From assembly GCA_041660745.1 (NCBI GenBank), contig JBAZVT010000003.1, forward strand, positions 1,880-65,879: DNA of 64,000 bases. The letters run 5' to 3'. The position numbers and the translations under genes were made by a program. Position 1 is the stretch's first letter; each line of letters opens with the position of its first letter. The DNA comes from Minisyncoccota bacterium (lineage in GTDB: Bacteria > Patescibacteriota > Minisyncoccia > Phycocordibacterales > JBAZVT01). Below the pieces are notes generated by a model. It had not been told where the DNA came from, made no database searches, and saw only the letters and a program-made list of their open reading frames with translations. Of the stretch, positions 6,476 through 61,713 are shown piece by piece.

Positions 6476-6600
6476 GTTCTTTTTTTATGCCAATAAGTCA
6501 TTATTAAGAAATTGTTTCAGAATTATGAAGATGTAGTATTGTATCTATGTGGCTAAATTAAGCCATATAACGTAATTTATTAATACAGTTTTACTATATA

Positions 6601-6683: not shown

Positions 6684-7322
6684 ATGAAAGATGGAGATAT
6701 TGTTTTGGTTGATAAGCCGAAGGGTATTACATCGTTTGATGTGATACGGAAGTTGTGGCGAACATATGGAAAGATGAAAATGGGGCATGCGGGGACACTT
6801 GATCCAAATGCAACTGGTCTCATGATACTTGCAGTTGGGTCTGCAACAAAGCGCTTAAATGAATTTTTGAAACTGCCCAAGTGTTATGAGGCAGAAATAC
6901 AGTTCGGTATACAGACTGACAGTGGCGATTGCACAGGGAAGATTATTGCAACTACAGATACTGAAGGTCTATCCACACAGCGAATTACAGATACTCTTGT
7001 GGGGATGAAAGGAACACTTGAACTTGCAGTGCCAATGTACTCGGCAATAAAAAAAGATGGGAAAGCGTTGTATGCGTATGCTCGTGCCGGAGAAGCTGTG
7101 GTGGTTCCTGTAAAACCGATGACTATTCGTAATGCGCATTGGGATGGGTATGATTCGGTGACAGCTCGAGCAAAAGTATTCTTTGATGTGGAAAGCGGGA
7201 CGTATATTCGTACCCTTGCAGAGGAATTAGGAAGACGAATGAATACTGTTGCGACATTGGTTGAGCTTCGTCGGCTTTCAATTGGAGAATATAAAGTTGA
7301 AGGTGCTTTAAAATTGGAATAA
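6684..7322 (+). CDS. truB: tRNA pseudouridine-55 synthase TruB (short form, no obvious PUA domain)
   Basis: LVDKPKGITSFDV and GHAGTLDPNATG (catalytic Asp motif). Confidence 0.92.
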   Translation: MKDGDIVLVDKPKGITSFDVIRKLWRTYGKMKMGHAGTLDPNATGLMILAVGSATKRLNEFLKLPKCYEAEIQFGIQTDSGDCTGKIIATTDTEGLSTQRITDTLVGMKGTLELAVPMYSAIKKDGKALYAYARAGEAVVVPVKPMTIRNAHWDGYDSVTARAKVFFDVESGTYIRTLAEELGRRMNTVATLVELRRLSIGEYKVEGALKLE

Positions 7323-18417: not shown

Positions 18418-18945
18418 ATGACCAAGGTTCAGGGTAATTGCGTTATTTTCTTGCTTGTGTCATTGATCATTGTTGGTTTTTGTATGCTTCCGGTGAACAA
18501 GCGTGAAAAACTGCTTCAGAATCAGTCAACAATGGCGCCGGCGGCAATGTCTCAAAACACCAGAGTCTTTCTGGATTACGTCGCTGGCAAGACAATCTCC
18601 AAGACTGACGTGGACGAAGCCTTTTACATAAGGGGTTCGGCTGGTTGGCTCGACACGGAGAAGATTCTTCGTGTGGCGAATGATCTCAAGGTTCCATGGG
18701 CTCAAGTCCATGATACGCTGGTTGTTCTCAACGAGAACTCGACAGTCATGTACATCGGTTCACAGGACAAGATTCTCGCCAAGTTTCGGGCGACCACTCA
18801 GCCAACCACAGCGCCGACGGTTCAGGTGGAGGCGACAAGTCAGGGTTCGTTGCCACCGGCAAGTGTCGTCGTCTATGGATGCTGGGCTCGCAACTATGTG
18901 GAGTCGGCGTACCAGGCGACTCATGATATGGGTCGGTGGGAATAA
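18418..18945 (+). CDS. Hypothetical membrane-anchored protein in a high-G+C islet
   Basis: Strong SD (AAAGGAGGTCGTTATG), an N-terminal TM segment (CVIFLLVSLIIVGFCML), and a Thr/Pro linker. No family recognised. Composition differs clearly from the flanks. Confidence 0.65.
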   Translation: MTKVQGNCVIFLLVSLIIVGFCMLPVNKREKLLQNQSTMAPAAMSQNTRVFLDYVAGKTISKTDVDEAFYIRGSAGWLDTEKILRVANDLKVPWAQVHDTLVVLNENSTVMYIGSQDKILAKFRATTQPTTAPTVQVEATSQGSLPPASVVVYGCWARNYVESAYQATHDMGRWE

Positions 18946-25497: not shown

Positions 25498-25653
25498 TTA
25501 CAAGCTGAATGTGGTGCCGAGGAAATATGGCCAAAGGATAATGGCGAGTACTCCTTTCCAGAAGGCGAGGTGAAGAAAGCCTATGGTGAAAAGCCATGCT
25601 CCTACCCATAATAACCCCGCACAACCACCTTGATTGACGTTTATTTTTTGCAT
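25498..25653 (-). CDS. Possible 51-aa small membrane protein
   Basis: Internal Met of ORF 25498..25800: MQKINVNQGGCAGLLWVGAWLFTIGFLHLAFWKGVLAIILWPYFLGTTFSL. It is followed by a 16-bp-stem terminator at 25448-25481. Confidence 0.35.
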   Translation of the reverse strand: MQKINVNQGGCAGLLWVGAWLFTIGFLHLAFWKGVLAIILWPYFLGTTFSL

Positions 25654-25723
25654 GGTTTCAGTGTATAATTTTTTTATGTGAAATGAGGGAAGAGTTTTAT
25701 TGCTATGGTAGGATGAGATAAGT

Positions 25724-25763
25724 ATAAAAAATCCGTCGGGAACCACTTGGTGGTTCCCGACGG
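25724..25763 (-). terminator. GC-rich terminator after the purH-fragment gene
   Basis: CCGTCGGGAACCAC pairs with GTGGTTCCCGACGG, with a T6 tail on the minus strand. Confidence 0.8.
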
Positions 25764-25792
25764 GGTATTGGCTGTATGCCGAGATAGGGGGG

Positions 25793-26392
25793 TTACCCAT
25801 GCTTGACTTGCGGAGTGAGGAATCTTTGCCCGCTCGCTTTTTTCTGACGCATCCACTTCGTGATCATCCGGTCGTAGTCCGAGGTAGCTGCAAAGACCTT
25901 GATCACCAACCTCTCGCGCTGGTCTTCCGAGATAGCGCCGGTTACAGTCAGTGATGCAACCACCCACTCATAATCGGTAGGATCAATGACCGGGATTGTC
26001 GAGATCCCGTTCTTGGACGCTGCGCGGATGAGCGAGGGGCCGCCGATATCAATCTCCTCAATGTCAGGTTTGTTCTTGAAGTCGTACAGATTGACCACGA
26101 CGAGATCAATCAGGTCGATGTGGTGCTCGACGAGCGCCGCAAGGTGTGCGGGAATGGCTCGTGCGGCGAGTATGCCGCCGAAGATGTTTGGATGGAGTGT
26201 CTTGACACGGCCGTCCAGCATTTCGGGAAAGCCCGTGACCTGCTCAATCGGAGTTACCTCGATGCCGACTGCCCGCAGTGCTTTCGCCGTCCCGCCGGTA
26301 GAGATGAACTCCCAACCTAGGGTGGCGAGCGGAAGAAGTTTTTCCAACCCACTCTTGTCCGTAACCGACACCAGTGCTCTTGGCATTGCCAT
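25793..26392 (-). CDS. Stand-alone IMP cyclohydrolase (MGS-like N-terminal domain of PurH) in a high-G+C islet
   Basis: ALVSVTDKSGL...ISTGGTAKAL...GRVKTLHPNIFGGILA...VVVNLYDF...IDIGGPSLIRAASKN is the PurH IMPCH domain. The ORF stops after the inter-domain linker, and no AICAR transformylase domain follows. SD is AAGGAG. Confidence 0.85.
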   Translation of the reverse strand: MAMPRALVSVTDKSGLEKLLPLATLGWEFISTGGTAKALRAVGIEVTPIEQVTGFPEMLDGRVKTLHPNIFGGILAARAIPAHLAALVEHHIDLIDLVVVNLYDFKNKPDIEEIDIGGPSLIRAASKNGISTIPVIDPTDYEWVVASLTVTGAISEDQRERLVIKVFAATSDYDRMITKWMRQKKASGQRFLTPQVKHG

Positions 26393-29092: not shown

Positions 29093-29104
29093 TACAGACT
29101 ATTT

Positions 29105-30094
29105 TTATGTTTCTAAAAGCTCTCGTATCCCATCTTCAATATTCACTGTTGGCTTCCAGTCGAGAAGTTTCTTAGCAAGCGCATTATCAGCAAGAGTGTG
29201 TTTCGGTTCTAAACGTCCAGAAATATGTTCAACGGGACCGCCAATAAGCTCGGCAATTTTATTAATTGAAACATTATTCCCCGCCCCAATATTTATCACC
29301 TCACCCTTCCCCACCTTATCACTTTCCATTGCCAAGATATTTGCTCGCACAACATCACGCACATGAGTAAAATCGCGAGTCTGTTTACCATCTCCAACAA
29401 TAGTCATTGGCTTCCCTACCTGTCGCTGTTTCAAAAAACTCGGGATTACAAGTGCATATGCACCCTCAGAACTCTGCCTCAAACCATATACATTAAAATA
29501 TCTGAGACTGACTGTAGGCACCCTGTACACCTCGCTCCATGTCTTGCAATATATTTCTCCAACATATTTTTGTAAGCCATAGGGACTCTTGGGCATTGCA
29601 GTCATAGACTCAACCAGTGGCATTGTTGGTTGGTCACCATATACAGAACTTGAAGCAGAATAAATAAGTTTTTTGACCCCTGCCCATCTACATGCCTCAA
29701 GCACATTTATTGTTCCGCCAATATTAACTTCGTTTGTTTCCTGAGGATGTTCTATAGAATACTGAACGCGAGGCAAAGCAGCACAATGGAAGACGTACTG
29801 AACATCTTTAAATACTTTCTTTATTGATTCCAGACTACACACATCGGCAATATGAAGTGTTGCTTTTTTGTTCACATTTTCTCTCCTCCCTTCAGATAAA
29901 TTATCTATAATATGCACATTGAAACCTCTTTCAACTAATGCATCAACTATATTAGAGCCAATAAAACCGGCACCGCCGGTTACAACAACTTTTATAGTTG
30001 ATGGCGGGATAGTGACTCGTTTTAGTCTACTTCGTTTTGTATTTTTATTTTTCATTATCATCATAGGAAGAGACATTATAACGTATCTAGACAA
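29105..30094 (-). CDS. NAD-dependent sugar-nucleotide epimerase/dehydratase (SDR), paralogue A
   Basis: VVTGGAGFIGSN Rossmann motif and the YGLQK catalytic Tyr-x3-Lys. The true start is probably an internal Met (MIMKNKN...). Confidence 0.9.
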   Translation of the reverse strand: MSRYVIMSLPMMIMKNKNTKRSRLKRVTIPPSTIKVVVTGGAGFIGSNIVDALVERGFNVHIIDNLSEGRRENVNKKATLHIADVCSLESIKKVFKDVQYVFHCAALPRVQYSIEHPQETNEVNIGGTINVLEACRWAGVKKLIYSASSSVYGDQPTMPLVESMTAMPKSPYGLQKYVGEIYCKTWSEVYRVPTVSLRYFNVYGLRQSSEGAYALVIPSFLKQRQVGKPMTIVGDGKQTRDFTHVRDVVRANILAMESDKVGKGEVINIGAGNNVSINKIAELIGGPVEHISGRLEPKHTLADNALAKKLLDWKPTVNIEDGIRELLET

Positions 30095-30320: not shown

Positions 30321-31244
30321 TTATTTCTCCATCTCCAACAGCTCCCTTATCCCCTCCTCAATTTTCATTGATGGTTTCCAGCCAAGTAACTTACGGGCAC
30401 GTGAATTATCTGCAAGGGTGTGTTTCGGTTCAAGACGTGCGGGGATATGCTCTGCGGGACCGCCAATGAGTTTGGCGATTTCATTCACGGAAATATTCTG
30501 TCCGGATCCTATATTAATCACCTCGCCCTTCCCCACCTTATCGCTCCCCATCGCTAAAATATTTGCTTGTACAATATCTCGCACATGAGTGAAGTCGCGA
30601 GTCTGTGTACCATCTCCTGTAATAGTCATCTTCTTGCCCTCACGATGCTGTTTGAGAAACCGGGCAATAACAAGTGCATAAGCACCCTCTTCGCTCTGGC
30701 GAGGGCCGTAGGCATTAAAATAGCGCAAACTGACGGTAGACAAGCCATACACCTCACTCCACGTTTTACAATAGAGTTCCCCGACATATTTCTGTAAACC
30801 ATAGGGACTTTTTGGACTGGCAAGCATACCTTCCACAAGAGGCATTTTTGTCTGATCACCATATGCCGCAGATGAGGCGGAATAGATAAGTTTTTTCACC
30901 CCTGAAGCGCGACAGGCCTCAAGCACATTTATTGTTCCGCCAATATTAACCTCGTTTGTTTCTTGAGGATGTTCTATAGAATACTGAACTCGAGGCATCG
31001 CAGCAAGATGGAATACATAGTCAGCACCTTTGAATAATTTTTTCAGAGCTGTGAAATTACAAATATCTGCGACATGAAGATGTGCCTTTTTATGCACATT
31101 CTTTCTCTTCCCCTCCGAAAGATTATCTACAACATGAACATCGAAACCCTTCTCCACAAGTGCATCTGTTAGATTTGAACCTATAAATCCTGCTCCACCA
31201 GTGACGACAACTTTGATTTTTGAATCATTCTTCAATGCAGGCAT
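30321..31244 (-). CDS. NAD-dependent sugar-nucleotide epimerase/dehydratase (SDR), paralogue B
   Basis: Has the same motifs as paralogue A. The two proteins align along their whole length with most residues identical. Confidence 0.9.
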   Translation of the reverse strand: MPALKNDSKIKVVVTGGAGFIGSNLTDALVEKGFDVHVVDNLSEGKRKNVHKKAHLHVADICNFTALKKLFKGADYVFHLAAMPRVQYSIEHPQETNEVNIGGTINVLEACRASGVKKLIYSASSAAYGDQTKMPLVEGMLASPKSPYGLQKYVGELYCKTWSEVYGLSTVSLRYFNAYGPRQSEEGAYALVIARFLKQHREGKKMTITGDGTQTRDFTHVRDIVQANILAMGSDKVGKGEVINIGSGQNISVNEIAKLIGGPAEHIPARLEPKHTLADNSRARKLLGWKPSMKIEEGIRELLEMEK

Positions 31245-37250: not shown

Positions 37251-37360
37251 TTCTGGCGGCTAGCTACTTTCCCCTCCATAAGAGTATCATCACCGCAAGA
37301 GAGCTTAACTTCTGAGTTCGGAATGAGATCAGGTGTATCCCCTCCGCCATACCACCAGAA
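37251..37360 (-). rRNA. rrf: 5S ribosomal RNA
   Basis: The minus strand reads TTCTGGTGGTATGGCGGAGGGGATACACCTGATCTCATTCCGAACTCAGAAGTTAAGC...CCGCCAGAA. This gives helix I pairing and the conserved CCGAAC / AGAAGTTAAGC loop-B/C region. Confidence 0.9.
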
Positions 37361-37498: not shown

Positions 37499-40916
<3,418 letters not shown>

Positions 40917-41567: not shown

Positions 41568-42251
41568 TTATCTATTTGAAATCTCCTCGCGAGTTTTTTC
41601 AATAAAACGCGCTGCGGCCTGTTGGCCACCAAGACCAAAGGAGAGACCAAAGGCGAGAGCAACAGCAACCACAACACCAGTGAAGAGTGTCTGGATAAGT
41701 GAAGTTGCAATACCAAGTTGAACGAGAGCCATAAGAATCGCAAAGATCCAAATTGTCCAACGAGAAACCGTACCGATAAATCTTGCAGACTTTACACCAG
41801 CAGCTGTTGCTGAACCGGTAATCAATCTACTAACAATATCAGCAAAGACTGCACCGGCCACAAGGATGATTGCAGCAATTATTACCTGTGGCAAAAAGCC
41901 GACAACAAGCTGAGTCAGGATTCCTTTTACTTGCGAGAGACCAAGCACATCCACAGCAGCAATAAGGAAAGCGATTATGATAAACCACTTTACTACCCCA
42001 CCAATAAATGCACTTGAGTTCAATCTGAACCCGCCACGTGCAAGAACTTTTTCTAAGTTTGCTCTGCGAAGAACATCATCAAGCTTAATAACTGCGACAA
42101 GGCGAGCGATTGCTGAACCCACAAAAATCGCAACTACCCAGCCAATAAGAATAATAAGAATCGCTACGACAACTACTGGGACAAATCCTGCAACTCCAAA
42201 CCAGAGATTTTGGAATGAACCGAGTAAAACTTCTTTCCACGTTATTAACAT
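41568..42251 (-). CDS. Membrane protein with conserved TM-helix repeats (MscS-N-terminal-like)
   Basis: Repeated pattern of a hydrophobic helix followed by a short charged loop (VVVAILIILIGWVVAIFVGSAIARLV ...). Recognition is weak. Confidence 0.55.
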   Translation of the reverse strand: MLITWKEVLLGSFQNLWFGVAGFVPVVVVAILIILIGWVVAIFVGSAIARLVAVIKLDDVLRRANLEKVLARGGFRLNSSAFIGGVVKWFIIIAFLIAAVDVLGLSQVKGILTQLVVGFLPQVIIAAIILVAGAVFADIVSRLITGSATAAGVKSARFIGTVSRWTIWIFAILMALVQLGIATSLIQTLFTGVVVAVALAFGLSFGLGGQQAAARFIEKTREEISNR

Positions 42252-42362
42252 TGTTCGTGATTAATTATTACTAGTAATGAACCCCTTTATTATAGCATTT
42301 ATGAAGATGGTGGGTAGTCCTTTCACCATGCTCCCACAAGGTGAAAGCCTCGTGAAGTAGCT

Positions 42363-42409
42363 GGGAATAAAAATAGGGCGTTCTCAAAGAACGCCCTATT
42401 TTTATTCCC
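42363..42409. terminator. 21-bp-stem palindrome / terminator
   Basis: GGGAATAAAAATAGGGCGTTC pairs with GAACGCCCTATTTTTATTCCC. Confidence 0.7.
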
Positions 42410-42434
42410 ACCTTCTACCTCCATTCTTCTTAAT

Positions 42435-43064
42435 TTATATAATGTTCAATTTATTGAAAACTTTCTCGTGTGGGTAATCAAGAATATCTCTCACAAGCTT
42501 GTCACAGACACCAAGACGGTACAGAAAATCGTCTGTCTCAAAAACAGAATATACAAGCTCCTTCCCCACTTCAGATTCCAATCCTTTCACCGCATTATCA
42601 AGAGCTGTTTTTTTAATGTTGTCGCCAACAATAAGAAGATCAACACGAGCATCCCAGTACTGATTGAACACTCCCGATGTTACTACCATTTTTATTTTTC
42701 CTGCCTTCATGAATCGCTCTGCGAGATCCCCTTTTGTAACTGGCATCATACTAATAAGAAATGTCTGAAGCGGTAAGAGATACTGACATTTATCATTAAG
42801 CTTCCAACCATGAAATTTCTTTGAAACAAAAACTTTCTTTTTTCCCTTTTTTACCTCGACAGATTTATGCACATCGCGCTTTATAAGCATACCGATACTT
42901 TCTAGGAGAGCGATTTCTTTCCGTGTTTCAGCTTTGCCAGTTTTAGAACGAGCCATGACATCATCGAGATCAAAAACCATCTTCTGATTAAACAAGAAGA
43001 GACGCATGATTTTTACTTTTGCGGCGCTTCCAAACAATTTCTGTAATGTGTCCATAGTATTCAT
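42435..43064 (-). CDS. Hypothetical protein with N-terminal winged-helix-like region
   Basis: KVKIMRLFLFNQKMVFDLDDVMARSK...EIALLESIGMLIKR looks like a wHTH. No family was recognised with confidence. The extended -10 TGGTATACT lies upstream on the minus strand at 43078-43086. Confidence 0.6.
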   Translation of the reverse strand: MNTMDTLQKLFGSAAKVKIMRLFLFNQKMVFDLDDVMARSKTGKAETRKEIALLESIGMLIKRDVHKSVEVKKGKKKVFVSKKFHGWKLNDKCQYLLPLQTFLISMMPVTKGDLAERFMKAGKIKMVVTSGVFNQYWDARVDLLIVGDNIKKTALDNAVKGLESEVGKELVYSVFETDDFLYRLGVCDKLVRDILDYPHEKVFNKLNII

Positions 43065-43116
43065 AATGGGTAATAGTATACCACACTCTTTTACAGTTTT
43101 TTAGTACCAATATTTC

Positions 43117-43178
43117 TGTCATTGCGAGCGACTTCAGCAGCTGGTACCCGAGAGCGGTATACTCGCGTGGCAATCCAG
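43117..43178 (-). repeat. CATTGCGAG / GCAATCCAG repeat unit (family C)
   Basis: CTGTCATTGCGAGCG....CGCGTGGCAATCCAG, which is the reverse orientation of the CTGGATTGCCACG..CTCGCAATGACAG units elsewhere. Confidence 0.75.
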
Positions 43179-43312
43179 TCTAATACCCACACCCCCAGTC
43201 GCATGCGAGGATGTACACAAAAAGCGGTATAGAAAAATTTTTAAACCAATTTCTTTTTCTAACAAAATTCGAGCTTTTGTACGCATGCAACGGGGTTCCG
43301 TTGAAATAAAAT

Positions 43313-43340
43313 AAAAACCCGCCTTTCGGCGGGTTTTTAT
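43313..43340 (-). terminator. Terminator after rplL
   Basis: AAAAACCCGCC pairs with GGCGGGTTTTT. Confidence 0.85.
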
Positions 43341-43341
43341 T

Positions 43342-43737
43342 TTATTTCAACTCCACTTTTGCACCTGCATCCTCAAGAGCTTTCTTGAGAGCCTCTGCAT
43401 CTTCTTTCTTCATACCTTCCTTGAGCATCTTTGGAGCTGCATCAACGAGGTCTTTTGCTTCCTTGAGACCAAGAGCAAGAGCTTCTTTTACAACCTTAAT
43501 AACTGCAATCTTCTGAGCACCTGCATCTGCGAGGTTAACACTGAAAATTGTTTTCTCTTCTGCCGCACCCGCTGCTGCTGGAGCTGCGACTGCTGTTGCT
43601 GCTGCAGAAACACCAAACTTAACTTCAAAGAATTTTACAAGCTCGTTGAGATCAAGTACTGACATGTTCTCAATTGCTGTTACGATATCCTTGAATTTTG
43701 CTGGAGTCTCAACAACTGTATTCTGTGCGTTGTCCAT
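43342..43737 (-). CDS. rplL: 50S ribosomal protein L7/L12
   Basis: Ala-rich hinge [17 protein letters not shown] and the C-terminal domain [24 protein letters not shown]. Confidence 0.97.
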
Positions 43738-43807
43738 AATAATTCGTAATAATTAATAAATATTAAGCCTGCTTTTTCCTAAACCCTTCGGGTCGGACGA
43801 ACCTCAT

Positions 43808-44299
43808 TTATGAGGTTTTAGTCTTTGCGATAGCATCGAGAGCGATAACAAGTCCCTGTATTGGAGAATTGATAACGTTGACGAACATACCATAAAGAGT
43901 TTTCTGAGAAGGAATGAGGGCGATAGCCATCATCTCTTCTTTGTTCATAAACTTACCTTCGAAGACACCTCCGAGGATTTGAATTTTCTTGTCGAGCTTC
44001 TTCTGGAAGTCATAGACTTCGCGAGCTGCATCGGTAAGATCTTTACTGAATGCCATTCCAAGTTCGCCTGGGAGTTCTGGCAACGTACCAGTGACACCAC
44101 CATCAACAAGAGCTTTCTTAGTGATAGTTTTCTTAGCAATCTTGTACCCTATTCCCAAGCCCTTGAGAGTCTTGCGAATAATAGTAGCGTCAGCAACTGT
44201 CAATCCATGGAAGTTGAAGAGAACGATAGAACCAGAGGTTTTTACCGCATCACTTACTTCTGCATAAATTTCCTTTTTCTTTTCTTTTGAGATAGCCAT
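43808..44299 (-). CDS. rplJ: 50S ribosomal protein L10
   Basis: MAISKEKKKEIYAEV...FNFHGLTVADATIIRKTLK, located immediately upstream of rplL. Confidence 0.95.
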   Translation of the reverse strand: MAISKEKKKEIYAEVSDAVKTSGSIVLFNFHGLTVADATIIRKTLKGLGIGYKIAKKTITKKALVDGGVTGTLPELPGELGMAFSKDLTDAAREVYDFQKKLDKKIQILGGVFEGKFMNKEEMMAIALIPSQKTLYGMFVNVINSPIQGLVIALDAIAKTKTS

Positions 44300-44336
44300 T
44301 TGGAATTTTTTACGAACGTAGTGAGTTTAAAATTCC

Positions 44337-44403
44337 CACCCTGTTAAATCCCCTGAGTACAGGGAATCATAGAAATCTGATTTCTATGACATTTAACAGG
44401 GTT
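44337..44403 (-). repeat. Three-way-junction palindromic element, family Z, copy 1 (rplJ leader)
   Basis: The outer stem is CCCTGTTAAAT paired with ATTTAACAGGG. It encloses two hairpins, CCCTG..CAGGG and CATAGAAATC..(G)ATTTCTATG. Confidence 0.8.
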
Positions 44404-44505
44404 GTGAAAATATATTCGCTAGGCTCGTTATTTTCTACAAAATAAATCGACCCGTAAGGGCCTGATAAAAGTGAGATCTCACATATCAATAGATATGTGA
44501 GTAAA

Positions 44506-44611
44506 CCTCGATAGGCTATTCCAGCAAAGCTGGACGCCCGTCCACCGAAGGTGGATTAGGGACCTGTATTAAAGCGGTTTTCCGCTGCCTATTGTCTTTG
44601 GCCTTACGAGG
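44506..44611 (-). ncRNA. Structured leader RNA upstream of rplJ (candidate L10-leader-type autoregulatory element)
   Basis: On the minus strand, the closing stem CCUCG-UA-AGGC / GCCU-AU-CGAGG encloses three hairpins: GCGG-aaaa-CCGC, CCACC-uucg-GGUGG and CCAGC-uuu-GCUGG. It lies between a putative promoter and rplJ. Confidence 0.3.
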
Positions 44612-44615
44612 TACA

Positions 44616-44643
44616 TATTTACATAAAATAGTTCACTTGTAAA
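44616..44643 (-). promoter_or_regulatory. Putative rplJL promoter (TTTACA, 16 nt, TAAATA)
   Basis: Minus-strand hexamers at 44643-44638 and 44621-44616. Confidence 0.3.
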
Positions 44644-44705
44644 GCAAGTACCCGCAGAACAATCTTTTTAAAAAATATATAATTTTCTACTAAAACCCTC
44701 CATTA

Positions 44706-44746
44706 TAAAAAGGGTGCGGTCCGCAGCGGACCGCACCCTTTGTTTT
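44706..44746. terminator. GC-rich palindromic terminator
   Basis: AGGGTGCGGTCCGC pairs with GCGGACCGCACCCT, flanked by A and T runs. Confidence 0.8.
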
Positions 44747-44770
44747 CCAACCGAGCGACACAGGTGGTCG

Positions 44771-45031
44771 CTACTCTTCTTGACCGTTTTCAGGGCAGTC
44801 CGGTTCCAACTCACAAGAGAAGTAGTACCCGAGACAGACTCCAAAGAGAATGAAACCAATCGGTCCCCCAACAACAGTAAGAGCCCTGCCCCAGAAGTCC
44901 GATTCCCTTGGCTCAAGATGACTCCGGAAAAGTCCGAAATCCTGCCAAAGAAATATCAAAACGCTCCAGACAGAACAGCAGGCCCAAAGACATGGAAGCC
45001 ACTGATAAGGATTGTGAAAAAAGGCACTCAT
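44771..45031 (-). CDS. 86-aa hypothetical two-TM protein (high-G+C islet)
   Basis: Internal start of ORF 44771..45271, with SD AAAGGAGA 6 nt upstream. Reads MSAFFHNPYQWLPCLWACCSVWSVLIFLW...GGPIGFILFGVCLGYYF. Confidence 0.5.
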   Translation of the reverse strand: MSAFFHNPYQWLPCLWACCSVWSVLIFLWQDFGLFRSHLEPRESDFWGRALTVVGGPIGFILFGVCLGYYFSCELEPDCPENGQEE

Positions 45032-45077
45032 ACAGCATCTCCTTTCCCGAAAGTTCCTACACAGAAGGCAAGTACGA

Positions 45078-45365
45078 TTACTCCTGCATTGGTTTGTGCA
45101 GTATTCTTTCACGCCTCGCAAGCGCCCCCGCAAAATCGTGAGCACATATTGAGATGGGTCCGAAGAGGACCCTGAATATGTACAGACGCCACGATGCCCA
45201 CGAGAATTTCCCCCGAGAAAGATCTGGGAAGAAAACGAACGCAGCGCCGATTGAGTAGCGCAGCCACGCAAGAACCGCGAGGCCTACAACAACAGCAACG
45301 ATCCCGACGGGTACAACCAGACATTCCCACATAAGAATCTCCTTCCAAAAAATAAACATCCACAT
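45078..45365 (-). CDS. 95-aa hypothetical membrane protein (high-G+C islet)
   Basis: Internal start of ORF 45078..45458, placed after the upstream terminator hairpin, with SD GAGGA. Reads MWMFIFWKEILMWECLVVPVGIVAVVVGLAVLAWL... Confidence 0.45.
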   Translation of the reverse strand: MWMFIFWKEILMWECLVVPVGIVAVVVGLAVLAWLRYSIGAAFVFFPDLSRGKFSWASWRLYIFRVLFGPISICAHDFAGALARRERILHKPMQE

Positions 45366-45405
45366 TCTTTCCTCATCCTTTATACCACACCTCATATCTA
45401 ATATC

Positions 45406-45440
45406 AAAAAGACCCGGGCATGTGTATGCCCGGGTCTTTG
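45406..45440 (-). terminator. GC-rich terminator after the 79-aa ORF
   Basis: AAAGACCCGGGCAT pairs with ATGCCCGGGTCTTT, with a T run on the minus strand. Confidence 0.8.
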
Positions 45441-45464
45441 TCCTAATGATTTGGACAAACTACT

Positions 45465-45704
45465 TCACCCCTGAAACATGTTCGCAAGAGCAATGCGCTG
45501 ACCGACACCGACGTATGGCTTCTGTTCAGAAGCAGGGAAACAACCTGCTAGCGGTGTTCCATACCCCTCGGGACCCCACAACGAACCAGGCTTGTGATAC
45601 CCACGTCCACACGATGCGACAGCCGCCAAGTCGCAAGGAGGCAGGCCACTCACATCTGCCCACGTCAGATCGCTCACCTCAGCAGTAACGTAACCGCCAC
45701 GCAT
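45465..45704 (-). CDS. 79-aa hypothetical soluble protein (high-G+C islet)
   Basis: SD GGAGG 5 nt upstream of the ATG, and its own terminator. Reads MRGGYVTAEVSDLTWADVSGLPPCDLAAV...; no family recognised. Confidence 0.5.
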   Translation of the reverse strand: MRGGYVTAEVSDLTWADVSGLPPCDLAAVASCGRGYHKPGSLWGPEGYGTPLAGCFPASEQKPYVGVGQRIALANMFQG

Positions 45705-45783
45705 AGTGCCTCCATAGGTAAAAGAAAAGTTTATTCCGCGAACGCTCTATCACCAGAGTACCATATTGGAAGCATCGTGGGTA

Positions 45784-48700
45784 TTATTCTTCTTTTACCT
45801 CGTGTCCACCTTCAACAAAAATAATTTCCGGCACAACAACTTCTTCCGTTTGTAATTCTAATACCTCTAAAGGTTTATTTAGGGCATCATTTTTTTCCTC
45901 AACAACACCCTCCCCGCTTTCTAAATTATCGGGTTCTTTGTATTCATCGGCAATAGGTGTGGGAGTCTCTCCTTCTGTTTTTTCTTCAGAACTCACAGGG
46001 ACCTCCTCTTCCGTTTTTTCTAAAGTAGTGCTTGCTATTGATGCAGATTCCGTTTCTTCTAACATGGCCATTTGCATAGCACCGAAGACACCATCTTCGT
46101 GTATTTCAATAGCCTCAGAAAGAAGTGCAACAGTCACTGGATCTTCTGCATATGCGAGCTTAGGATTTCCTGACGGCACAGCATCAAACCATGGTGAAAA
46201 ATCGACAAGACCAAAGACTGAATCCCCCACTGCAAGATTATTTTTTATCTCTTCAAATGGCCCCGTCGCGTCACCCCACCAATTTTCTTGTGCGAGGATA
46301 GTATTTTCACCCGTAGAAAGAATGCCGTTTGAACGATTTCCAAATATTTGACTGCGAGCAACCGAAGCACTGTCCCCAAAGAAAAGAATCCCATATTCAT
46401 TACGGGCAAGTGTACTTGAAGCAATCACAACTTTCCCATCATCAAATATCCCAACACCCTCAGCTTCATTATCTGAAATATTTGAATTTGTAATCGTCAT
46501 TAAACCCGATGCCAAACTATTTCCAAATATTTCTACACCTGCACCACAATAAGAAATATCTGCATCAGAAATTTCTGCGGAAGAATTGTCGTATACATAC
46601 ACCCCTACCCCGTCCACACGGGAAATATTTGGACGTGTGACTTGGGCGGTGCTATTGGCATATATAGACAAAGCATCTCCAGAAATATTTGAAAGAGCGA
46701 GGTCAGAAAAAATCCCATGAGAATCCATGTACAGATTAATTCCGCCCGTAGTATTTTCAGCGCGCACGTCAGAAAGAGTGACCTCGGCCCCGTCGTATGC
46801 ATTCACAATGGAATCACCGCCAGAAATACTAGTATCCTGTATCGCAAGCGTACACTGTCTACAGGTGACGGTATCAGTATATGGAGAGCCTGTGATTGTG
46901 CTGTTTGAAATAACCACTGAAGAACTTGCCTGTGCACTTATTCCATCCTCAAGTTTTTTTATTTTTGTATATCCAAATACATTTCCTACAGACCCTGAAT
47001 AAAACTCCGTTGCACCAGTGCCATATTCAGAGAGTTCCCCATTATCAGAAGACCTCAAATCTCCCCCGACAGAATCATCTGTAAATTCAGTAAAAATAAC
47101 TGGATTGTCTGATGTGCCAAGCGACTTGATAGTACCCTCCACAGAAAGTCCTGTTGCATAACTCCCCCAACTTCCATTATCGTAAAATTTTACAATCGTC
47201 CCAGGCAAGAGTGTCAGCGTTGTTCCTGAAGCGACGTGTATATTACCTTCAAACACATACGGACTTTCTTCTGGAGTGAGTATCATATCTTCTGTAAAAG
47301 TTTCCCCTCTATACCACACAGTCGAAACACTGTTACGTGACTTTGGCGTGCCTAGGATATATCCATCTTTTGAATCTTTTCCATTTGCAATTTCTCCGGT
47401 GTTCGCATTCCAGTTTTCATAATCAAATCCCCCAACATACGGCGAGACCCGTTCCATGGTTCTTTTGTCACCAGTATCATTACTCCCCCCTGGCCAACTT
47501 CCTTCAACCAACACTGTCGTGTCTATGGTTGTAGATCCGTAATTTAGATTCAATATAACACCACTATTGTTGAGAGCTCCGACATATACAAGGTCTGCTT
47601 GGATATCTGAAACAGAAGTATTGTCTGTTCTCTCCAAGAGAAAGTAGCCATGGGCAGGAATTGTTTTTGATAATGAAATACGCGGTGTTCCAGTAGCTTT
47701 ACTATTAACAAGAGCCCAGCCCGAAAGATCTATATCATACGGAGTCGTGTTATACAGCTCCAACCATTCATCATTAGCATCAGCCTCTGTGCCCATCCAA
47801 GCAACTTCATTAATAACTACAGGCATCGTCGCAACAGACACACTCACTGCAACAGGCTCAGAATCACCACCTGCATTGTGTGCTGAGACAGTAAATTGTA
47901 AGTCACTTCTATCATCAACAACCACGCTGAGCCCAGAGTATGTGGTTGTAGAAACAAGACCGTTTAAATTAAATGTAAAATATTCAGCAATACCAAGAGA
48001 TTCATCTGCTTGCCAGGTCAACGTCAGGGTTGTTGTTGCAACTAGACAGCCAGTCGAGACGAGAGACTGCGAACACTCAGCGACTGAAAAATTTGTAACT
48101 CCAGGAAGCTCAGGAAGAAACGGTGACGGGATTACAGGAACCTCCGGTTCTCCGGGAGATGCTGTGTGGCGGGATCTATTTGACCCAGAATAAATAACCT
48201 GTGTTGGGTTATAAAAAGGCGCAAACACCCCAGTTGGGAAATTTGCGTCAGCTACTTTTGATTGATCTATAAAGCTCGGTGTAGAATTAAGTTCCAATCC
48301 CTCACCCTCATCAAGGACTGTGGTGATACTATTAGTAGTCTTTGACTGTAAAAAAGTAATTGATTTTATTGCAGACTGTGCAAAAGTCTGAGCACTTTCA
48401 CCTGTCTTTTTCGCAACAACCGTTGCTGTTGTCTTTCCGGTATATCCAAGAACGGAAGCGATATTCCCACCCGTTTGCACTGTCCACAACGTTCCATAAT
48501 TAGCACCCCTCCAGGCGCTTGTCGCAACTTTTGCCACAGGTGCACCTATGTAATCTGAGAAAAGATACGCAAAGCCAATTGGTATAAGTTGAAAAATATT
48601 TTTCTTCGCAAGACCCTCAGCAAGCTCTTTATCCTTCAGCGCCTCTTCTACTTGCTCCTGCTTTTGCTCTGCAAGATATTCCTCGCGCGCCGCTTTCGCC

Positions 48701-59900: not shown

Positions 59901-60485
59901 ATGTCACTTCTTGAATATAATGAAGTCGTAGAACGAAAATATATCATATTGGACGGACAACCATACGAAGTTCTCACTTCACATGTTTTTCGTAAACAAC
60001 AGAGAAAGCCTGTTAATGCAGCAAAACTCAAGAACCTTATCACAGGTAAAGTCACGGAACATTCATTCCACGTATCCGAGAAAACTGAAGAAGCAGAAAT
60101 TGAAACACGAGAGGTAAAGTATCTGTATACAAGCAAGGGTGAATACTGGTTCTGTGAAGCTGAAGACCCTGCAAAACGTTTCCAGCTCTCTGCAGAAATT
60201 GTCGGGACAGCAATACAATTTATAAGAACAAATACAGTGATGGACTCGTATGTTTTTGATGACAAAATCATGGGCGTCCGCCTCCCTATCAAAGCCGACC
60301 TCAAAGTTGTAGATGCTCCTCCTGCAGTCAAAGGCGACACCGCAAAGGGTGGCAACAAGCAACTCAAACTTGAAACAGGTGCTGTTATCAACGGCCCCCT
60401 CTTCATTGAAGAAGGAGAGACCATCCGTGTTAATACAGAAACTGGAGAATACGTGGAGCGAGTAAACGAAGGAAAGAAGTTCTAA
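59901..60485 (+). CDS. efp: Elongation factor P
   Basis: The ATG at 59901 is used because the ORF-track start at 59871 is TTG. KYIILDGQPYEVLTSHVF...AKLKNLITGK, with three-domain EF-P collinearity. Confidence 0.88.
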   Translation: MSLLEYNEVVERKYIILDGQPYEVLTSHVFRKQQRKPVNAAKLKNLITGKVTEHSFHVSEKTEEAEIETREVKYLYTSKGEYWFCEAEDPAKRFQLSAEIVGTAIQFIRTNTVMDSYVFDDKIMGVRLPIKADLKVVDAPPAVKGDTAKGGNKQLKLETGAVINGPLFIEEGETIRVNTETGEYVERVNEGKKF

Positions 60486-60524
60486 GACAAGGCACTAGCT
60501 ATTAGCCTCTAGAATCTAGCCATA

Positions 60525-60556
60525 AAAAATATCAAGGTTCGACCTTGATATTTTTT
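60525..60556 (+). terminator. Terminator after efp
   Basis: AAAAAATATCAAGGT pairs with ACCTTGATATTTTTT. Confidence 0.85.
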
Positions 60557-60574
60557 GTATCCAACACCAAATAC

Positions 60575-60610
60575 AAAAGCCGCGCCCAGAGGGCGCGGCT
60601 TTTGTTTTTC
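60575..60610. terminator. Bidirectional GC-rich terminator (serves rpsR on the minus strand)
   Basis: AAAAGCCGCGCCC pairs with GGGCGCGGCTTTT. Confidence 0.8.
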
Positions 60611-60623
60611 TTATGTAACTAAT

Positions 60624-60827
60624 TTAATTAGCTACGAATGGGAGAAGGCCCATGAAACGAGCACGCTTTACAGCTTCTGAAAGCTTGCGCTGATTCTTGG
60701 AGCTAACACCACTGCGCTTGTGTGATGTGATACGGCCATGAGGATTGAGGAACTTTTTGAGGACCTCTATATCCTTATAGTCTATATGCTTTATGTTGTT
60801 TTGCGCAAAATAGCACTGTTTTTTCAT
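60624..60827 (-). CDS. rpsR: 30S ribosomal protein S18
   Basis: IDYKDIEVLKKFLNPHGRITSHKRSGVSSKNQRKLSEAVKRARFMGLLPF. Confidence 0.96.
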   Translation of the reverse strand: MKKQCYFAQNNIKHIDYKDIEVLKKFLNPHGRITSHKRSGVSSKNQRKLSEAVKRARFMGLLPFVAN

Positions 60828-60874
60828 GTCTGATTTTTTAAGAGCGAAGCGATATAAAAGATGCCAAACTTTTG

Positions 60875-60935
60875 TTGCCTTCCTCGGCTCGGAAATGAGA
60901 AAATTTTTCTCATTTCTCTCACCCTACGTCGGCAA
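60875..60935 (+). repeat. Intergenic structured repeat, family A, copy 3 (lacks the GGGTATTTACCC module)
   Basis: TTGCCTTCCTCGGCTCG, then the hairpin GAAATGAGAAAA/TTTTCTCATTTC, then CCCTACGTCGGCAA. Confidence 0.8.
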
Positions 60936-60945
60936 GAAAAATCGG

Positions 60946-61002
60946 CACCCTGTTAAATCCGCTTCGCGGTATCTGCTTTCCAAGCAGATATTTAACAGGG
61001 TT
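60946..61002 (-). repeat. Three-way-junction palindromic element, family Z, copy 2 (ssb-rpsR spacer)
   Basis: The outer stem CCCTGTTAAAT / ATTTAACAGGG and the flanks CAC...TT are the same as in copy 1. The inner hairpins differ: CCGC-TTC-GCGG and ATCTGCTT-TCC-AAGCAGAT. Confidence 0.8.
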
Positions 61003-61054
61003 AAGATTTTGTAACCGCACAATGTCGCTTTCGCTTCATTCTACGGACAAAATC

Positions 61055-61507
61055 TTAAAATGGAATGTCTTCAGGGTTAATCTCTTCTTCTGGATATTCT
61101 ATCGCTGGAGCATCTGCCGTCGGAGCCGGTGCGCCTTTCGTATCCTTTTCAGGATATGCGGCACCTGGTGTTCCTCCCTCTTTACGAGGACCAAACTGAA
61201 TTCGGTCTGCAATAACTTCTGTGCGATATTTTTTCTCTCCATCTTTACCATCCCAACTGCGTGTCTGCATTCTTCCCTCCACGAGGATAGAAGAGCCTTT
61301 TTTCATGTATTGAGCTGTTGTTGCAGCTTGATTTCCAAACACTACCACGTTGTGATAATCTGTCGCATCCTGGCGAACACCGCTCTTGTCCTTCCACGTT
61401 CTATTAGTTGCAACTGAGAAGGTGCATACTTTTATACCAGAAGGTAAAGATTTCAATTCTGGATCACGAACCAAATTACCTATGATAATTGCTTTGTTGA
61501 GATACAT
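61055..61507 (-). CDS. ssb: Single-stranded DNA-binding protein
   Basis: OB-fold N-terminus MYLNKAIIIGNLVRDPELK...TDYHNVVVFG and the acidic tail EEEINPEDIPF. Confidence 0.95.
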   Translation of the reverse strand: MYLNKAIIIGNLVRDPELKSLPSGIKVCTFSVATNRTWKDKSGVRQDATDYHNVVVFGNQAATTAQYMKKGSSILVEGRMQTRSWDGKDGEKKYRTEVIADRIQFGPRKEGGTPGAAYPEKDTKGAPAPTADAPAIEYPEEEINPEDIPF

Positions 61508-61591
61508 CCTGAGAATTAGTTAATTGATAATCTATCCTCATTATACTCCAAATGGAGTCTTTTTGCTTTGAGTTACAGTATCTCTTCTTAC

Positions 61592-61689
61592 GGTCATTGC
61601 GAGTGCGTCCGAAGCAATCCAGTTTTTCTTGAATCTTGAATCAAATTCCTGGATTGCCACGTCGGAAGACCTCCTCGCAAAGACAGAGG
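61592..61689. repeat. Family C repeat units in inverted arrangement (rpsF-ssb spacer)
   Basis: GGTCATTGCGAGTGCGTCCGAAGCAATCCAG (61592-61622) and CCTGGATTGCCACGTCGGAAGACCTCCTCGCAAAGACAGAGG (61648-61689). Confidence 0.8.
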
Positions 61690-61713
61690 AGAAATATTTG
61701 TAATTAAAGGTAC

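What the first reader, a model, noticed from the sequence alone, without database searches (positions are those of the whole stretch)
44700..45780. High-G+C islet with three small self-contained ORFs between rplJ and the giant secreted-protein gene
About 1.1 kb has markedly higher G+C than its neighbours; I counted 31/60 in line 45181.

On the minus strand it contains:
- A 79-aa soluble ORF with SD GGAGG and its own GC-rich terminator (45406-45440).
- A 95-aa membrane ORF (SD GAGGA).
- An 86-aa Cys/Trp-rich two-TM ORF (SD AAAGGAGA), closed by a second GC-rich terminator (44706-44746).

The consensus-like SD sequences and GC-clamp terminators contrast with most resident genes, which have weak or no SD. 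I recognise none of the three proteins. They could be a horizontally acquired micro-cassette, for example a small effector with membrane partners, but the function is unknown.
Basis: seen in the sequence. Interest (0 to 1): 0.55.

Follow-up and report, generated by a model that had tools for sequence, protein, structure and literature searches.

The report
Orphan small-ORF insertion upstream of rplJ
About 1.05 kb of G+C-rich DNA, seen only in this Paceibacterota (CPR) genome, sits between a surface-protein gene and the ribosomal rplJ operon; its three small ORFs have good ribosome-binding sites, a promoter and terminators, but no relatives anywhere and no normal coding-sequence signature, so it is a real but ordinary orphan islet of unknown function.

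Summary
Window 44706-45783 has G+C 0.51, against 0.41 for the window. It carries three minus-strand ORFs (79, 84-105 and 86 aa) and two long perfect hairpin terminators.

- **Insertion:** the one fully syntenic relative (L002) has only 280 nt between the orthologous surface-protein gene and rplJ. About 40 other relatives have 30-540 nt there. The islet is therefore a lineage-specific insertion, not an assembly chimera.
- **For translation:** all three ORFs have a Shine-Dalgarno site 4-7 nt before an ATG. None of 3000 shuffles gave even two such ORFs. The host genes are almost all Shine-Dalgarno-less and often look leaderless. ORF B also has a host-type extended -10 promoter.
- **Against evolved genes:** there are no homologues among about 15 billion proteins, nor in the Pfam, PHROG, NCBIfam or PADLOC libraries. 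There is no codon-position periodicity (z 0.15-1.4; resident median 7). Amino-acid composition equals a random translation of the G+T-rich strand, which explains the "Cys/Trp-rich" look. AlphaFold2 gives pLDDT 39 for A.
- **Also excluded:** no RNA family or RNA structure, no repeats, no mobility genes.

Best reading: an inserted orphan cassette, probably expressing small, mostly membrane peptides, of foreign or de novo origin. No donor or function could be identified. Interest is low to moderate.

The parts
44706..45783 (-). Lineage-specific G+C-rich insertion (the islet). It runs from the stop codon of the LTD/beta-helix surface-protein gene to hairpin T2, just upstream of the rplJ promoter and L10 leader.
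   Evidence: G+C is 0.51 against 0.41 for the window. L002 has a 280-nt gap at this place and relatives have 30-540 nt. Homology to the L002 intergenic region resumes at about 44655.
45709..45713 (-). Shine-Dalgarno site GGAGG of ORF A, 4 nt before the ATG.
   Evidence: It is the only GGAGG on this strand of the islet.
45465..45704 (-). ORF A, 79 aa, soluble, Gly/Pro/Ala-rich, 3 Cys. No terminator separates it from the upstream giant gene, so it is probably co-transcribed with that gene.
   Evidence: Called by NCBI (MFA6094480.1), JGI and Logan. The only database matches are itself and a repeat-inflated spurious hit. AlphaFold2 pLDDT is 38.7. Periodicity z is 1.4.
45408..45439 (.). Hairpin T1: a perfect 14-bp stem with a 4-nt loop, an A-tract and a T-tract. 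It looks like a bidirectional intrinsic terminator and lies 25 nt after the stop codon of A.
   Evidence: Fold z is -2.3 to -5.2 in windows containing it.
45379..45407 (-). Putative promoter of B-C: -35 TTGATA (45407-45402), a 17-nt spacer ending in TGG, and -10 TATAAA (45384-45379). This is an extended -10 of the resident type.
   Evidence: Read from the sequence. One search detects TATAAA with TGn. It shares GTGTGGTATA with the upstream sequence of the resident gene at 42435-43064.
45078..45395 (-). ORF B, a small membrane protein. Possible starts are 45395 (105 aa, as annotated by NCBI), 45365 (95 aa, with GAGGA/AAGGA upstream) and 45332 (84 aa, with AAGGAG 45344-45339 at 6 nt, the best ribosome-binding site).
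   Evidence: Only match is itself. Hydrophobic stretch at residues 8-46. Periodicity z is 1.05, with T at codon position 2 at 0.43.
45039..45044 (-). Shine-Dalgarno site AAGGAG of ORF C, 7 nt before the ATG. The ribosome-binding-site context resembles that of B (GGAA(A)GGAGAT.CT.TATG).
   Evidence: The repeat pair D8, 45034-45044 / 45334-45344.
44771..45031 (-). ORF C, 86 aa. It has two hydrophobic helices and an acidic C-terminal tail. The 6 Cys and 5 Trp are what the strand's base composition predicts.
   Evidence: Called only by JGI. AlphaFold2 gives a helical hairpin with pLDDT 66. Periodicity z is 0.15. Composition log-likelihood ratio is -0.19 bits/aa.
44709..44741 (.). Hairpin T2: 16-nt perfect arms flanked by A- and T-tracts (44706-44746), 24 nt after the stop codon of C. 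It closes the B-C unit and insulates the rplJ promoter and leader.
   Evidence: Fold z is -3.7 to -4.6.
44300..44660 (-). Flank, not part of the islet: the ancestral rplJ promoter region and L10 leader.
   Evidence: Rfam L10_leader matches 44431-44619 at 31.6 bits, below the gathering score of 44. The core AAGGCCAAAGACA is conserved in relatives. Fold z is -4 to -6.
44714..45175 (+). Plus-strand 153-aa ORF, judged a shadow ORF.
   Evidence: It starts with GTG inside T2, has no Shine-Dalgarno site, no Pfam hit and periodicity z 0.16. Only the Logan gene caller reports it, and it is a singleton.

Best explanation
The islet is about 1.05 kb of DNA inserted, in this Paceibacterota lineage only, between the 3' end of a conserved LTD/beta-helix surface-protein gene and the promoter and L10 leader of rplJ-rplL.

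It is organised as two expression units on the same strand as its neighbours:
1. ORF A (79 aa, soluble) is appended to the surface-protein transcript. It is translated from its own GGAGG site and closed by hairpin T1.
2. ORF B (84-105 aa) and ORF C (86 aa) form a bicistron. It is driven by a host-type extended -10 promoter that starts in the T-tract of T1. Each ORF has an AAGGAG site. Hairpin T2 closes the unit and also shields the rplJ leader from read-through.

The likely products are one short, probably disordered peptide and two small hydrophobic peptides that insert into the cell membrane.

The ORFs have no homologues, no codon periodicity and an amino-acid composition dictated by the G+T-rich strand. 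They are therefore orphan, young or decaying genes, of foreign or de novo origin, and not members of an evolved protein family. They are probably dispensable accessory envelope peptides.

**Shown:** the insertion, its composition, the ORFs, the Shine-Dalgarno sites, the hairpins, and the absence of homologues and of coding statistics.
**Inferred:** transcription, translation, membrane insertion and foreign origin.
**Unknown:** function.
For: **Insertion**
- L002 keeps the gene order RAYT - g202 - giant - rplJ - rplL - g209 - g227. Only 280 nt (G+C 0.38) lie between the giant gene's stop and rplJ, against 1484 nt here.
- About 40 relatives have gaps of 30-540 nt with G+C below their locus mean.
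- The promoter and leader align with L002 up to about 44655.

**Not a chimera**
- An independent assembly is identical.

**Translation signals**
- Three of three ORFs have a strict Shine-Dalgarno site at 4-7 nt. No shuffle out of 3000 gave two or more. Only 5 of 122 ORFs elsewhere in the window have one.
- Every AAGGAG and GGAGG on this strand of the islet sits in front of an in-frame ATG of a long ORF.
- ORF coverage has P = 0.002.
- Hairpins lie 24-25 nt after the stop codons of A and C.
- The TGGTATAAA promoter matches resident promoters.
- Two annotation pipelines call A and B, and JGI also calls C.

**Orphan status**
- Searches return only self-matches.
- Nothing was found in Pfam, PHROGs, NCBIfam or PADLOC.

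**Context**
- Relatives L008, L009, L011, L019, L039 and L047 carry their own unrelated small TM ORFs at the same position. Small lineage-specific membrane ORFs upstream of the rplJ leader therefore recur in this clade.
Against: **Missing coding statistics**
- Codon-position mutual information gives z = 1.4, 1.05 and 0.15 for A, B and C, and 0.96 for the three concatenated.
- Resident 261-nt chunks have median z 7, with 93% above 3. High-G+C resident genes give 5-12.
- E. coli 780-nt chunks never fall below 6.1.
- The sliding profile through 44140-45700 cannot be told apart from the non-coding L10 leader.

**Composition and structure**
- The amino-acid composition log-likelihood ratio (-0.10 to -0.19 bits/aa) matches shadow ORFs (-0.11 +/- 0.11), not resident genes (+0.045 +/- 0.07).
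- AlphaFold2 finds no fold for A.

**Origin and expression**
- There is no donor, second copy, mobility gene or flanking repeat.
- The host mostly ignores Shine-Dalgarno sites, so their use here is unproven.
- No expression data exist.

**Mitigation**
- Real small or poorly characterised E. coli genes (yaaX, yaaI, yaaY, insA) also score z below about 2.
Confidence: 0.5

Rival explanations
1. The islet is a non-coding spacer. The functional parts are the two strong bidirectional hairpins, acting as tandem terminators or insulators between the long surface-protein transcript and the autoregulated rplJ leader. The ORFs are by-products of a stop-poor, G+T-rich strand.
For: - No codon periodicity. 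Composition and periodicity resemble shadow ORFs and the adjacent leader.
- No homologues.
- Overlapping ORFs of 77-166 aa exist in other frames and on the other strand, which is typical of G+C-rich DNA.
- AlphaFold2 pLDDT for A is 39.
Against: - Three correctly spaced Shine-Dalgarno-ATG pairs in front of the three longest same-strand ORFs never appeared in 3000 shuffles.
- ORF coverage has P = 0.002.
- A terminator function needs about 40 nt, not 1 kb.
- The relative L002 manages with a 280-nt gap.
Confidence: 0.25
2. The islet is a remnant of a phage or plasmid lysis or toxin module. B would be a holin-like or type-I-toxin-like small membrane protein with alternative starts (M1/M3/M12, analogous to holin/antiholin dual starts). 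C would be a second membrane partner or immunity protein.
For: - B is 84-95 aa with a hydrophobic core and a basic C-terminal tail (ARRERILHKPMQE), and has two ribosome-binding sites serving nested in-frame starts.
- C is a two-helix hairpin with an acidic tail.
- The Shine-Dalgarno-led, G+C-rich, orphan character fits mobile DNA.
Against: - No PHROG, PADLOC or Pfam hit.
- No match in IMG/VR contigs, phage genomes or plasmids.
- No endolysin, integrase or attachment-site repeats nearby.
- The resemblance is architectural only, and it is what any hydrophobic ORF would give.
Confidence: 0.08
3. The islet is an assembly chimera or contaminating DNA from a co-occurring high-G+C organism.
For: Atypical G+C. 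The organism was seen in only one sample.
Against: - The Logan assembly of SRR18595301 is 100% identical across both junctions, 41599-46473.
- The two flanks are direct syntenic neighbours in L002. A chimera would need two precise false joins that return to the same locus.
- The B promoter is of the host type.
Confidence: 0.03
4. The real gene is the plus-strand ORF 44714-45175 (153 aa), or the islet is a structured non-coding RNA.
For: One gene caller chose the plus-strand ORF. High G+C in an A+T-rich genome is often a sign of structured RNA.
Against: - The plus-strand ORF has a GTG start inside the T2 stem, no Shine-Dalgarno site or promoter, periodicity z 0.16, no Pfam hit, and a Lys/Pro/Thr-rich antisense-like sequence.
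- On the RNA reading, no Rfam family matches even at E up to 10, apart from terminator-like noise.
- Fold z-scores inside the islet run from about -1.6 to +0.8, except at the two hairpins and in one window, 45100-45249, at -3.9.
Confidence: 0.04

Closest known systems
Orphan (ORFan) small-gene islets or strain-specific genomic islets in bacterial genomes
   Same: A discrete insertion between conserved syntenic neighbours, with atypical G+C, short ORFs without homologues, and its own expression signals.
   Different: It is very small (about 1 kb). It has no integrase, tRNA, attachment site or insertion-sequence hallmarks, and no donor can be found. The ORF content is statistically indistinguishable from random translation. 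The translation signals (Shine-Dalgarno) differ from the host's mostly leaderless or Shine-Dalgarno-less style.
Small lineage-specific membrane ORFs upstream of the rplJ leader in related Paceibacterota (L008 99 aa, L009 96 aa; about 50-aa single-TM family in L011, L019, L039 and L047)
   Same: Same position (after a large secreted beta-helix protein gene, before the L10 leader), same strand, and a similar size and hydrophobic character to B and C.
   Different: No sequence similarity to A, B or C. Those ORFs are A+T-rich like their genomes, lack Shine-Dalgarno sites, and in L008 and L009 abut the upstream gene directly.
Class II holins / holin-antiholin dual-start genes
   Same: B is under 100 aa and hydrophobic, with a charged C-terminal tail and nested in-frame starts that each have a ribosome-binding site.
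   Different: There is no PHROG or Pfam match, no endolysin or other phage gene, and no viral relatives.
MerF/MerE/MerT-type small Cys-pair metal transporters
   Same: C is 86 aa with two TM helices, a CxxxCC motif in TM1 and a Cys pair in the C-terminal tail.
   Different: There is no Pfam or NCBIfam match and no mer operon context. The Cys content (4.2% over A, B and C) is what the strand's base composition predicts (5.0%), so the motif carries no weight.

Membership tests
Horizontally acquired genomic islet | Present between genes that are adjacent in related genomes | tested here: met
   L002 has 280 nt between the giant gene and rplJ, against 1484 nt here. Relatives have 30-540 nt.
Horizontally acquired genomic islet | Composition deviates from the host | tested here: inconclusive
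   G+C lies at z = 3.5, but a resident region reaches 0.505. Tetranucleotide distance is not an outlier. Shine-Dalgarno usage deviates strongly from the host.
Horizontally acquired genomic islet | Identifiable donor or homologous copies elsewhere | tested here: not met
   Only self-matches among about 15 billion proteins. Nothing in phages, plasmids, IMG/VR or 52 related loci.
Horizontally acquired genomic islet | Mobility hallmarks (integrase or transposase, flanking direct repeats, tRNA target) | tested here: not met
   No flanking repeat longer than 15 nt. No tRNA in the window. The nearest transposase-like gene, a RAYT at 50387-51082, is conserved in L002, which lacks the islet. T1 and T2 do not resemble each other.
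Bona fide protein-coding genes | ORF with start codon, ribosome-binding site and transcription signals | tested here: met
Bona fide protein-coding genes | Three-base periodicity and protein-like amino-acid composition | tested here: not met
   z is 1.4, 1.05 and 0.15 singly and 0.96 combined, against resident median 7 and an E. coli 780-nt minimum of 6.1. The composition log-likelihood ratio falls in the shadow-ORF range.
Bona fide protein-coding genes | Conservation under purifying selection | not testable with these tools
   No second sequence exists to compare. The organism was seen in one sample only.
Bona fide protein-coding genes | Confident predicted fold | tested here: inconclusive
   A has pLDDT 38.7. 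C has pLDDT 66 as a helical hairpin. Single-sequence predictions are weak evidence either way.
Structured non-coding RNA | Rfam match or folding energy beyond shuffles | tested here: not met
Holin / phage lysis cassette | Family match, or an adjacent endolysin or phage genes | tested here: not met
Mer-type Cys-pair transporter | MerT, MerF, MerE or MerC profile match and mer operon neighbours | tested here: not met
   The Cys content is explained by base composition.
Diversity-generating retroelement (template/variable repeat next to the giant gene) | Repeat pair of about 100 nt that differs at adenines | tested here: not met
   No repeat involves the islet.
Ribosomal protein L10 leader (flank, 44431-44619) | Rfam RF00557 at gathering score; conserved core upstream of rplJ | tested here: inconclusive
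   31.6 bits against a gathering score of 44. The core AAGGCCAAAGACA is conserved in relatives, and the region has strong fold z-scores.

The most novel reading that the evidence does not exclude
The islet may be a snapshot of gene birth or gene capture in an ultra-reduced CPR genome. A piece of G+C-rich, essentially random-composition DNA has been wired with Shine-Dalgarno sites, a host-type promoter and terminators. It is translated into new small membrane peptides in an organism whose own genes are mostly leaderless or Shine-Dalgarno-less. This would mean that a minority Shine-Dalgarno-dependent initiation mode is reserved for, or tolerated in, newly acquired genes. Other Shine-Dalgarno-bearing, G+C-rich pieces at 18418 and 25793 hint at the same thing.
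Probability: 0.15. Interest if true: 0.55.

Novelty: new member of a known kind. Interest (0 to 1): 0.3.

Why it matters
If the ORFs are expressed, this is a compact, well-delimited case of new small-protein genes arising or arriving in a symbiont-sized CPR genome. It has a clean before-and-after comparison (L002 against this genome). It also shows an internal contrast between Shine-Dalgarno-led newcomers and leaderless resident genes.

That contrast could be used to flag recent acquisitions in Patescibacteria genomes. It could also be used to ask whether these organisms retain functional Shine-Dalgarno recognition.

If the ORFs are not expressed, the case shows that gene callers annotate composition-driven ORFs in G+C-rich spacers. 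NCBI, JGI and Logan disagree here. Either way no known function or new mechanism is revealed, so the practical importance is modest.

Tried and rejected
**Homology and database searches that found nothing**
- Rfam, at gathering and at E up to 10, gave nothing in the islet. It gave only a sub-threshold L10 leader in the flank.
- Pfam, PHROGs, NCBIfam and PADLOC gave nothing for A, B and C. Pfam gave nothing for the plus-strand ORF.
- Word-seeded searches of 5.8 billion protein clusters for A, B and C returned only self-matches.
- Exhaustive HMMER with A against 1.84 billion cluster representatives returned A itself plus P0004. P0004 is a 4632-aa protein made of near-identical repeats, probably eukaryotic. 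Its E-value of 3e-6 comes from summing 10 near-identical repeats that each score about 26 bits, so I rejected it as spurious.
- blastn against phages and plasmids found no match.
- IMG/VR scans for A, B and C found none.
- A metagenome scan with the giant protein found only LTD-domain paralogues and no closer relative.
- tblastn, blastn and tblastx of the islet against 52 related loci and the rest of the window found nothing. A weak collinear hit in L045 proved spurious.

**Other tests that led nowhere**
- Exact-protein look-ups of rplJ, rplL and A show the organism occurs in one sample only, so no strain comparison is possible.
- The repeat search found no template/variable repeat pair, no attachment-site-like flanking repeats, and no second copy of T1 or T2.
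- The large structured RNA idea was rejected on fold z-scores.
- The similarity of T2 to the REP palindromes flanking the RAYT gene is limited to a shared 7-mer, GGACCGC. I treated it as chance.
- A literature search for Shine-Dalgarno or leaderless usage in CPR/Patescibacteria found nothing usable.
Full report
**Source and context**

The window comes from a Candidatus Paceibacterota (CPR/Patescibacteria) MAG. ORFs A and B are NCBI proteins MFA6094480.1 and MFA6094479.1 (locus tags WC757_01165 and WC757_01160), on an 80.8-kb contig.

On the minus strand the local gene order is:
- a RAYT-like Y1 transposase gene (50387-51082);
- a 202-aa gene;
- a 1263-aa secreted protein gene with LTD and right-handed beta-helix domains (45784-49575);
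- the islet;
- the L10 leader, rplJ (43808-44299) and rplL (43342-43737);
- a 209-aa gene and an MscS-like 227-aa gene.

**Check of the observation**

G+C of 44700-45780 is 0.510, against 0.411 for the window. This is z = 3.5 relative to other 1081-nt windows outside the rRNA. The minus strand is rich in G and T (T 0.30, G 0.30, A 0.19, C 0.21). The deviation is real but moderate. Windows starting near 25500 reach 0.505, and the tetranucleotide distance is within the window's range.

I add three details:
- B has nested starts. The inner in-frame ATG at 45332 (84 aa) has the best ribosome-binding site, AAGGAG at 6 nt. Its context closely resembles that of C (AAGGAG at 7 nt; repeat D8).
- Immediately after T1 there is a TTGATA-17-TATAAA promoter with a TGn extension (45407-45379). 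It shares GTGTGGTATA with the upstream sequence of the resident gene at 42435-43064.
- No terminator lies between the giant gene and A, so A is probably co-transcribed with that gene.

**It is an insertion, not an artefact**

A Logan assembly of run SRR18595301 reproduces 41599-46473 exactly.

Among 50 rplJ loci from GTDB species representatives, L002 (MAG ELA554, rplJ 61% identical) keeps the whole gene order from RAYT to the MscS-like gene. In L002 the orthologous 1348-aa gene stops at 6552 and rplJ starts at 6833. The gap is 280 nt with G+C 0.38 and contains only a hairpin and the leader. In this window the gap is 1484 nt.

Across about 40 relatives the gap upstream of rplJ is 30-540 nt, with two exceptions of 1000 and 1246 nt. 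Its G+C is below the locus mean. Many of these relatives also have a gene for a large secreted protein of 860-1350 aa directly upstream.

The rplJ promoter and L10-leader core (AAGGCCAAAGACA) align between the window (from about 44655 downward) and L002. The extra DNA is therefore about 44706-45783. Our giant protein also has a C-terminal acidic tail of about 133 aa that is absent from the L002 orthologue.

**Evidence that the ORFs are translation units**

The host hardly uses Shine-Dalgarno sites. Of 49 resident genes only about three have one: 18418 (AAGGAGG), 25793 (AAGGAG) and recA at 58744 (AAGGA). Sixteen of the 49 have a -10-like hexamer ending 4-13 nt before the start codon, against 6.6% at random positions. 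This suggests leaderless mRNAs.

In the islet every AAGGAG and GGAGG on the minus strand lies 4-7 nt before an in-frame ATG of one of the three long ORFs. With a strict definition, three ORFs are led by a Shine-Dalgarno site. Of 3000 dinucleotide shuffles, 3.9% gave one such ORF and none gave two. Elsewhere in the window 5 of 122 ORFs of at least 60 aa qualify. Same-strand ATG-ORF coverage (819 of 1037 nt) has P = 0.002. Hairpins follow the stop codons of A and C by 25 and 24 nt.

**Evidence that they are not ordinary evolved genes**

- *No homologues.* Searches of 5.8 billion clusters for A, B and C return only self-matches, and all are singleton clusters. The exhaustive HMMER search with A adds only a repeat-inflated false positive. 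Pfam, PHROGs, NCBIfam and PADLOC are empty. Phage, plasmid, IMG/VR and related-locus DNA give nothing.
- *No codon periodicity.* Mutual information between base and codon position gives z = 1.4 (A), 1.05 (B), 0.15 (C) and 0.96 for the three joined. Resident 261-nt chunks have median 7, with 93% above 3. The high-G+C resident genes at 25793 and 18418 give 5-12. In a sliding scan the whole stretch 44140-45700 cannot be told apart from the non-coding leader, while both flanking genes rise to 5-25.
- *E. coli control at 51% G+C.* The median for 261-nt chunks is 4.8, with 10% below 1.5. The 780-nt chunks never fall below 6.1. However, small poorly characterised genes score as low as the islet ORFs (yaaX 2.1, yaaI 1.9, yaaY -0.4, insA 0.8). 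The test therefore argues against evolved genes, not against translation.
- *Random-like amino-acid composition.* Per-residue log-likelihood ratios of protein-like against random-from-own-bases composition are -0.10, -0.12 and -0.19. Shadow ORFs in the window give -0.11 +/- 0.11 and resident genes give +0.045 +/- 0.07. Observed Cys (4.2%) and Trp (5.0%) are near or modestly above the random expectation (5.0% and 2.9%). The "Cys/Trp-rich" trait is therefore a by-product of composition.
- *Weak structure predictions.* AlphaFold2 gives no fold for A (pLDDT 38.7). For C it gives a helical hairpin at pLDDT 66, as expected for any hydrophobic sequence.

**Other readings excluded**

- No Rfam family matches, and no folding signal exists beyond the two hairpins.
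- No template/variable repeat, attachment-site-like repeat or second copy was found.
- The plus-strand 153-aa ORF starts with GTG inside T2 and lacks every signal.

**Comparative context**

Several relatives carry their own small hydrophobic ORFs at this spot:
- L008 has a 99-aa ORF that overlaps the stop codon of the upstream large gene.
- L009 has a 96-aa ORF that starts 2 nt after the upstream large gene.
- L011, L019, L039 and L047 carry a single-TM family of about 50 aa.

All are unrelated to A, B and C. The junction before the rplJ leader therefore repeatedly hosts lineage-specific small membrane ORFs in this clade.

**Conclusion**

The islet is a genuine lineage-specific insertion. It carries two Shine-Dalgarno-dependent expression units for orphan small ORFs, one soluble and two membrane-type. 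Its signals say "translated". Its content says "not shaped by long-term selection".

The most economical explanation is a recently captured or newly arisen cassette that produces small accessory, mostly membrane, peptides (confidence about 0.5). The main rival is a non-coding spacer with terminators (about 0.25). Specific functions such as a holin or toxin, or a Mer-like transporter, rest on architecture only and failed every membership test. The donor and the function remain unknown.

This is a new member of a known kind, the orphan small-gene islet, and is of low to moderate interest.

Noticed in passing
window-wide; examples at starts 19924, 25356, 36971, 43064 and 62678: Resident genes almost never have a Shine-Dalgarno site (about 3 of 49). 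Sixteen of 49 have a TATAAT-like box, six of them with a TGn extension, ending 4-13 nt before the start codon, against 6.6% at random positions. The organism seems to rely largely on leaderless or Shine-Dalgarno-independent initiation.
   Followed up: partly
window 25793-26392 (-), and 25498-25800: This is the second G+C-rich patch (gene G+C 0.56). It holds a 199-aa fragment of PurH, with the MGS domain plus only the first 62 of 311 AICARFT/IMPCHase profile positions. It is preceded by a good AAGGAG site. It looks like a truncated, possibly foreign gene fragment.
   Followed up: partly
window 18418-18945 (+): A 175-aa ORF with G+C 0.51, a perfect AAGGAGG site at 5 nt, no Pfam match and normal codon periodicity (z about 5). 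It is another gene led by a Shine-Dalgarno site and rich in G+C, in a genome that otherwise lacks such sites.
   Followed up: partly
window 37507-40906 (-) and 37251-37359 (-): The 23S rRNA match spans 3400 nt for a 2925-position model, so about 475 nt are extra (insertions or introns, which I recall as frequent in CPR rRNA genes). 5S follows it. There is no 16S gene and not a single tRNA gene in 64 kb.
   Followed up: no
window 50343-50386, 51101-51144, 51397-51430; gene 50387-51082 (-): An IS200-like Y1 transposase (RAYT-type, Pfam Y1_Tnp) is bracketed by near-identical 44-nt palindromes (CATAGGACCGCCCTATG...), with a further partial copy nearby. This is a REP/RAYT-like arrangement. The gene is conserved in L002 and L047.
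   Followed up: partly
window 45784-46180 (-): The LTD/beta-helix surface protein carries a C-terminal tail of about 133 aa, rich in Glu, Thr and Val, that is missing from the L002 orthologue. That orthologue stops 18 nt after the residue aligned to position 1130. It is a second lineage-specific addition directly abutting the islet.
   Followed up: partly
L008 3276-3575; L009 7504-7794; L011 916-1074; L019 1711-1872; L039 7419-7562; L047 7481-7636: Related Paceibacterota have their own small hydrophobic ORFs between the large secreted-protein gene and the rplJ leader. Four of them form a single-TM family of about 50 aa with an N-terminal motif F(F/W)K.T.GF. None resembles A, B or C.
   Followed up: partly
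window 43342-44299 and loci L002-L047: In this clade rplJ-rplL is not linked to rplK-rplA or rpoB-rpoC. Instead it is consistently followed, or in some relatives preceded on the other strand, by a conserved 209-aa protein without a Pfam match and an MscS-like 227-aa protein.
   Followed up: no
window 53800-55920 and 60420-61700: Several short dispersed repeat families (for example CATCCTCGCAAAGACAGA and AATCCTGGATTGCTTCGG) and a 25-nt perfect-stem palindrome at 54359-54427 occur in and around intergenic regions. They may be a family of small repeated elements.
   Followed up: no
window 45716-45726 / 45790-45800: An 11-nt perfect inverted repeat pairs the last codons of the giant gene with the sequence immediately 5' of ORF A's Shine-Dalgarno site. 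It could couple translation of A to termination of the upstream gene, or it could be chance.
   Followed up: no
window 29100-29399 / 30322-30621: A 300-nt direct repeat at 76% identity links the 3' ends of two adjacent ORFs (29105-30094 and 30321-31244). Their N-terminal regions share the motif VVVTGGAGFIGSN. They look like tandem paralogues, probably NAD-dependent epimerase/dehydratase-type genes, though I did not run a family search on them.
   Followed up: no
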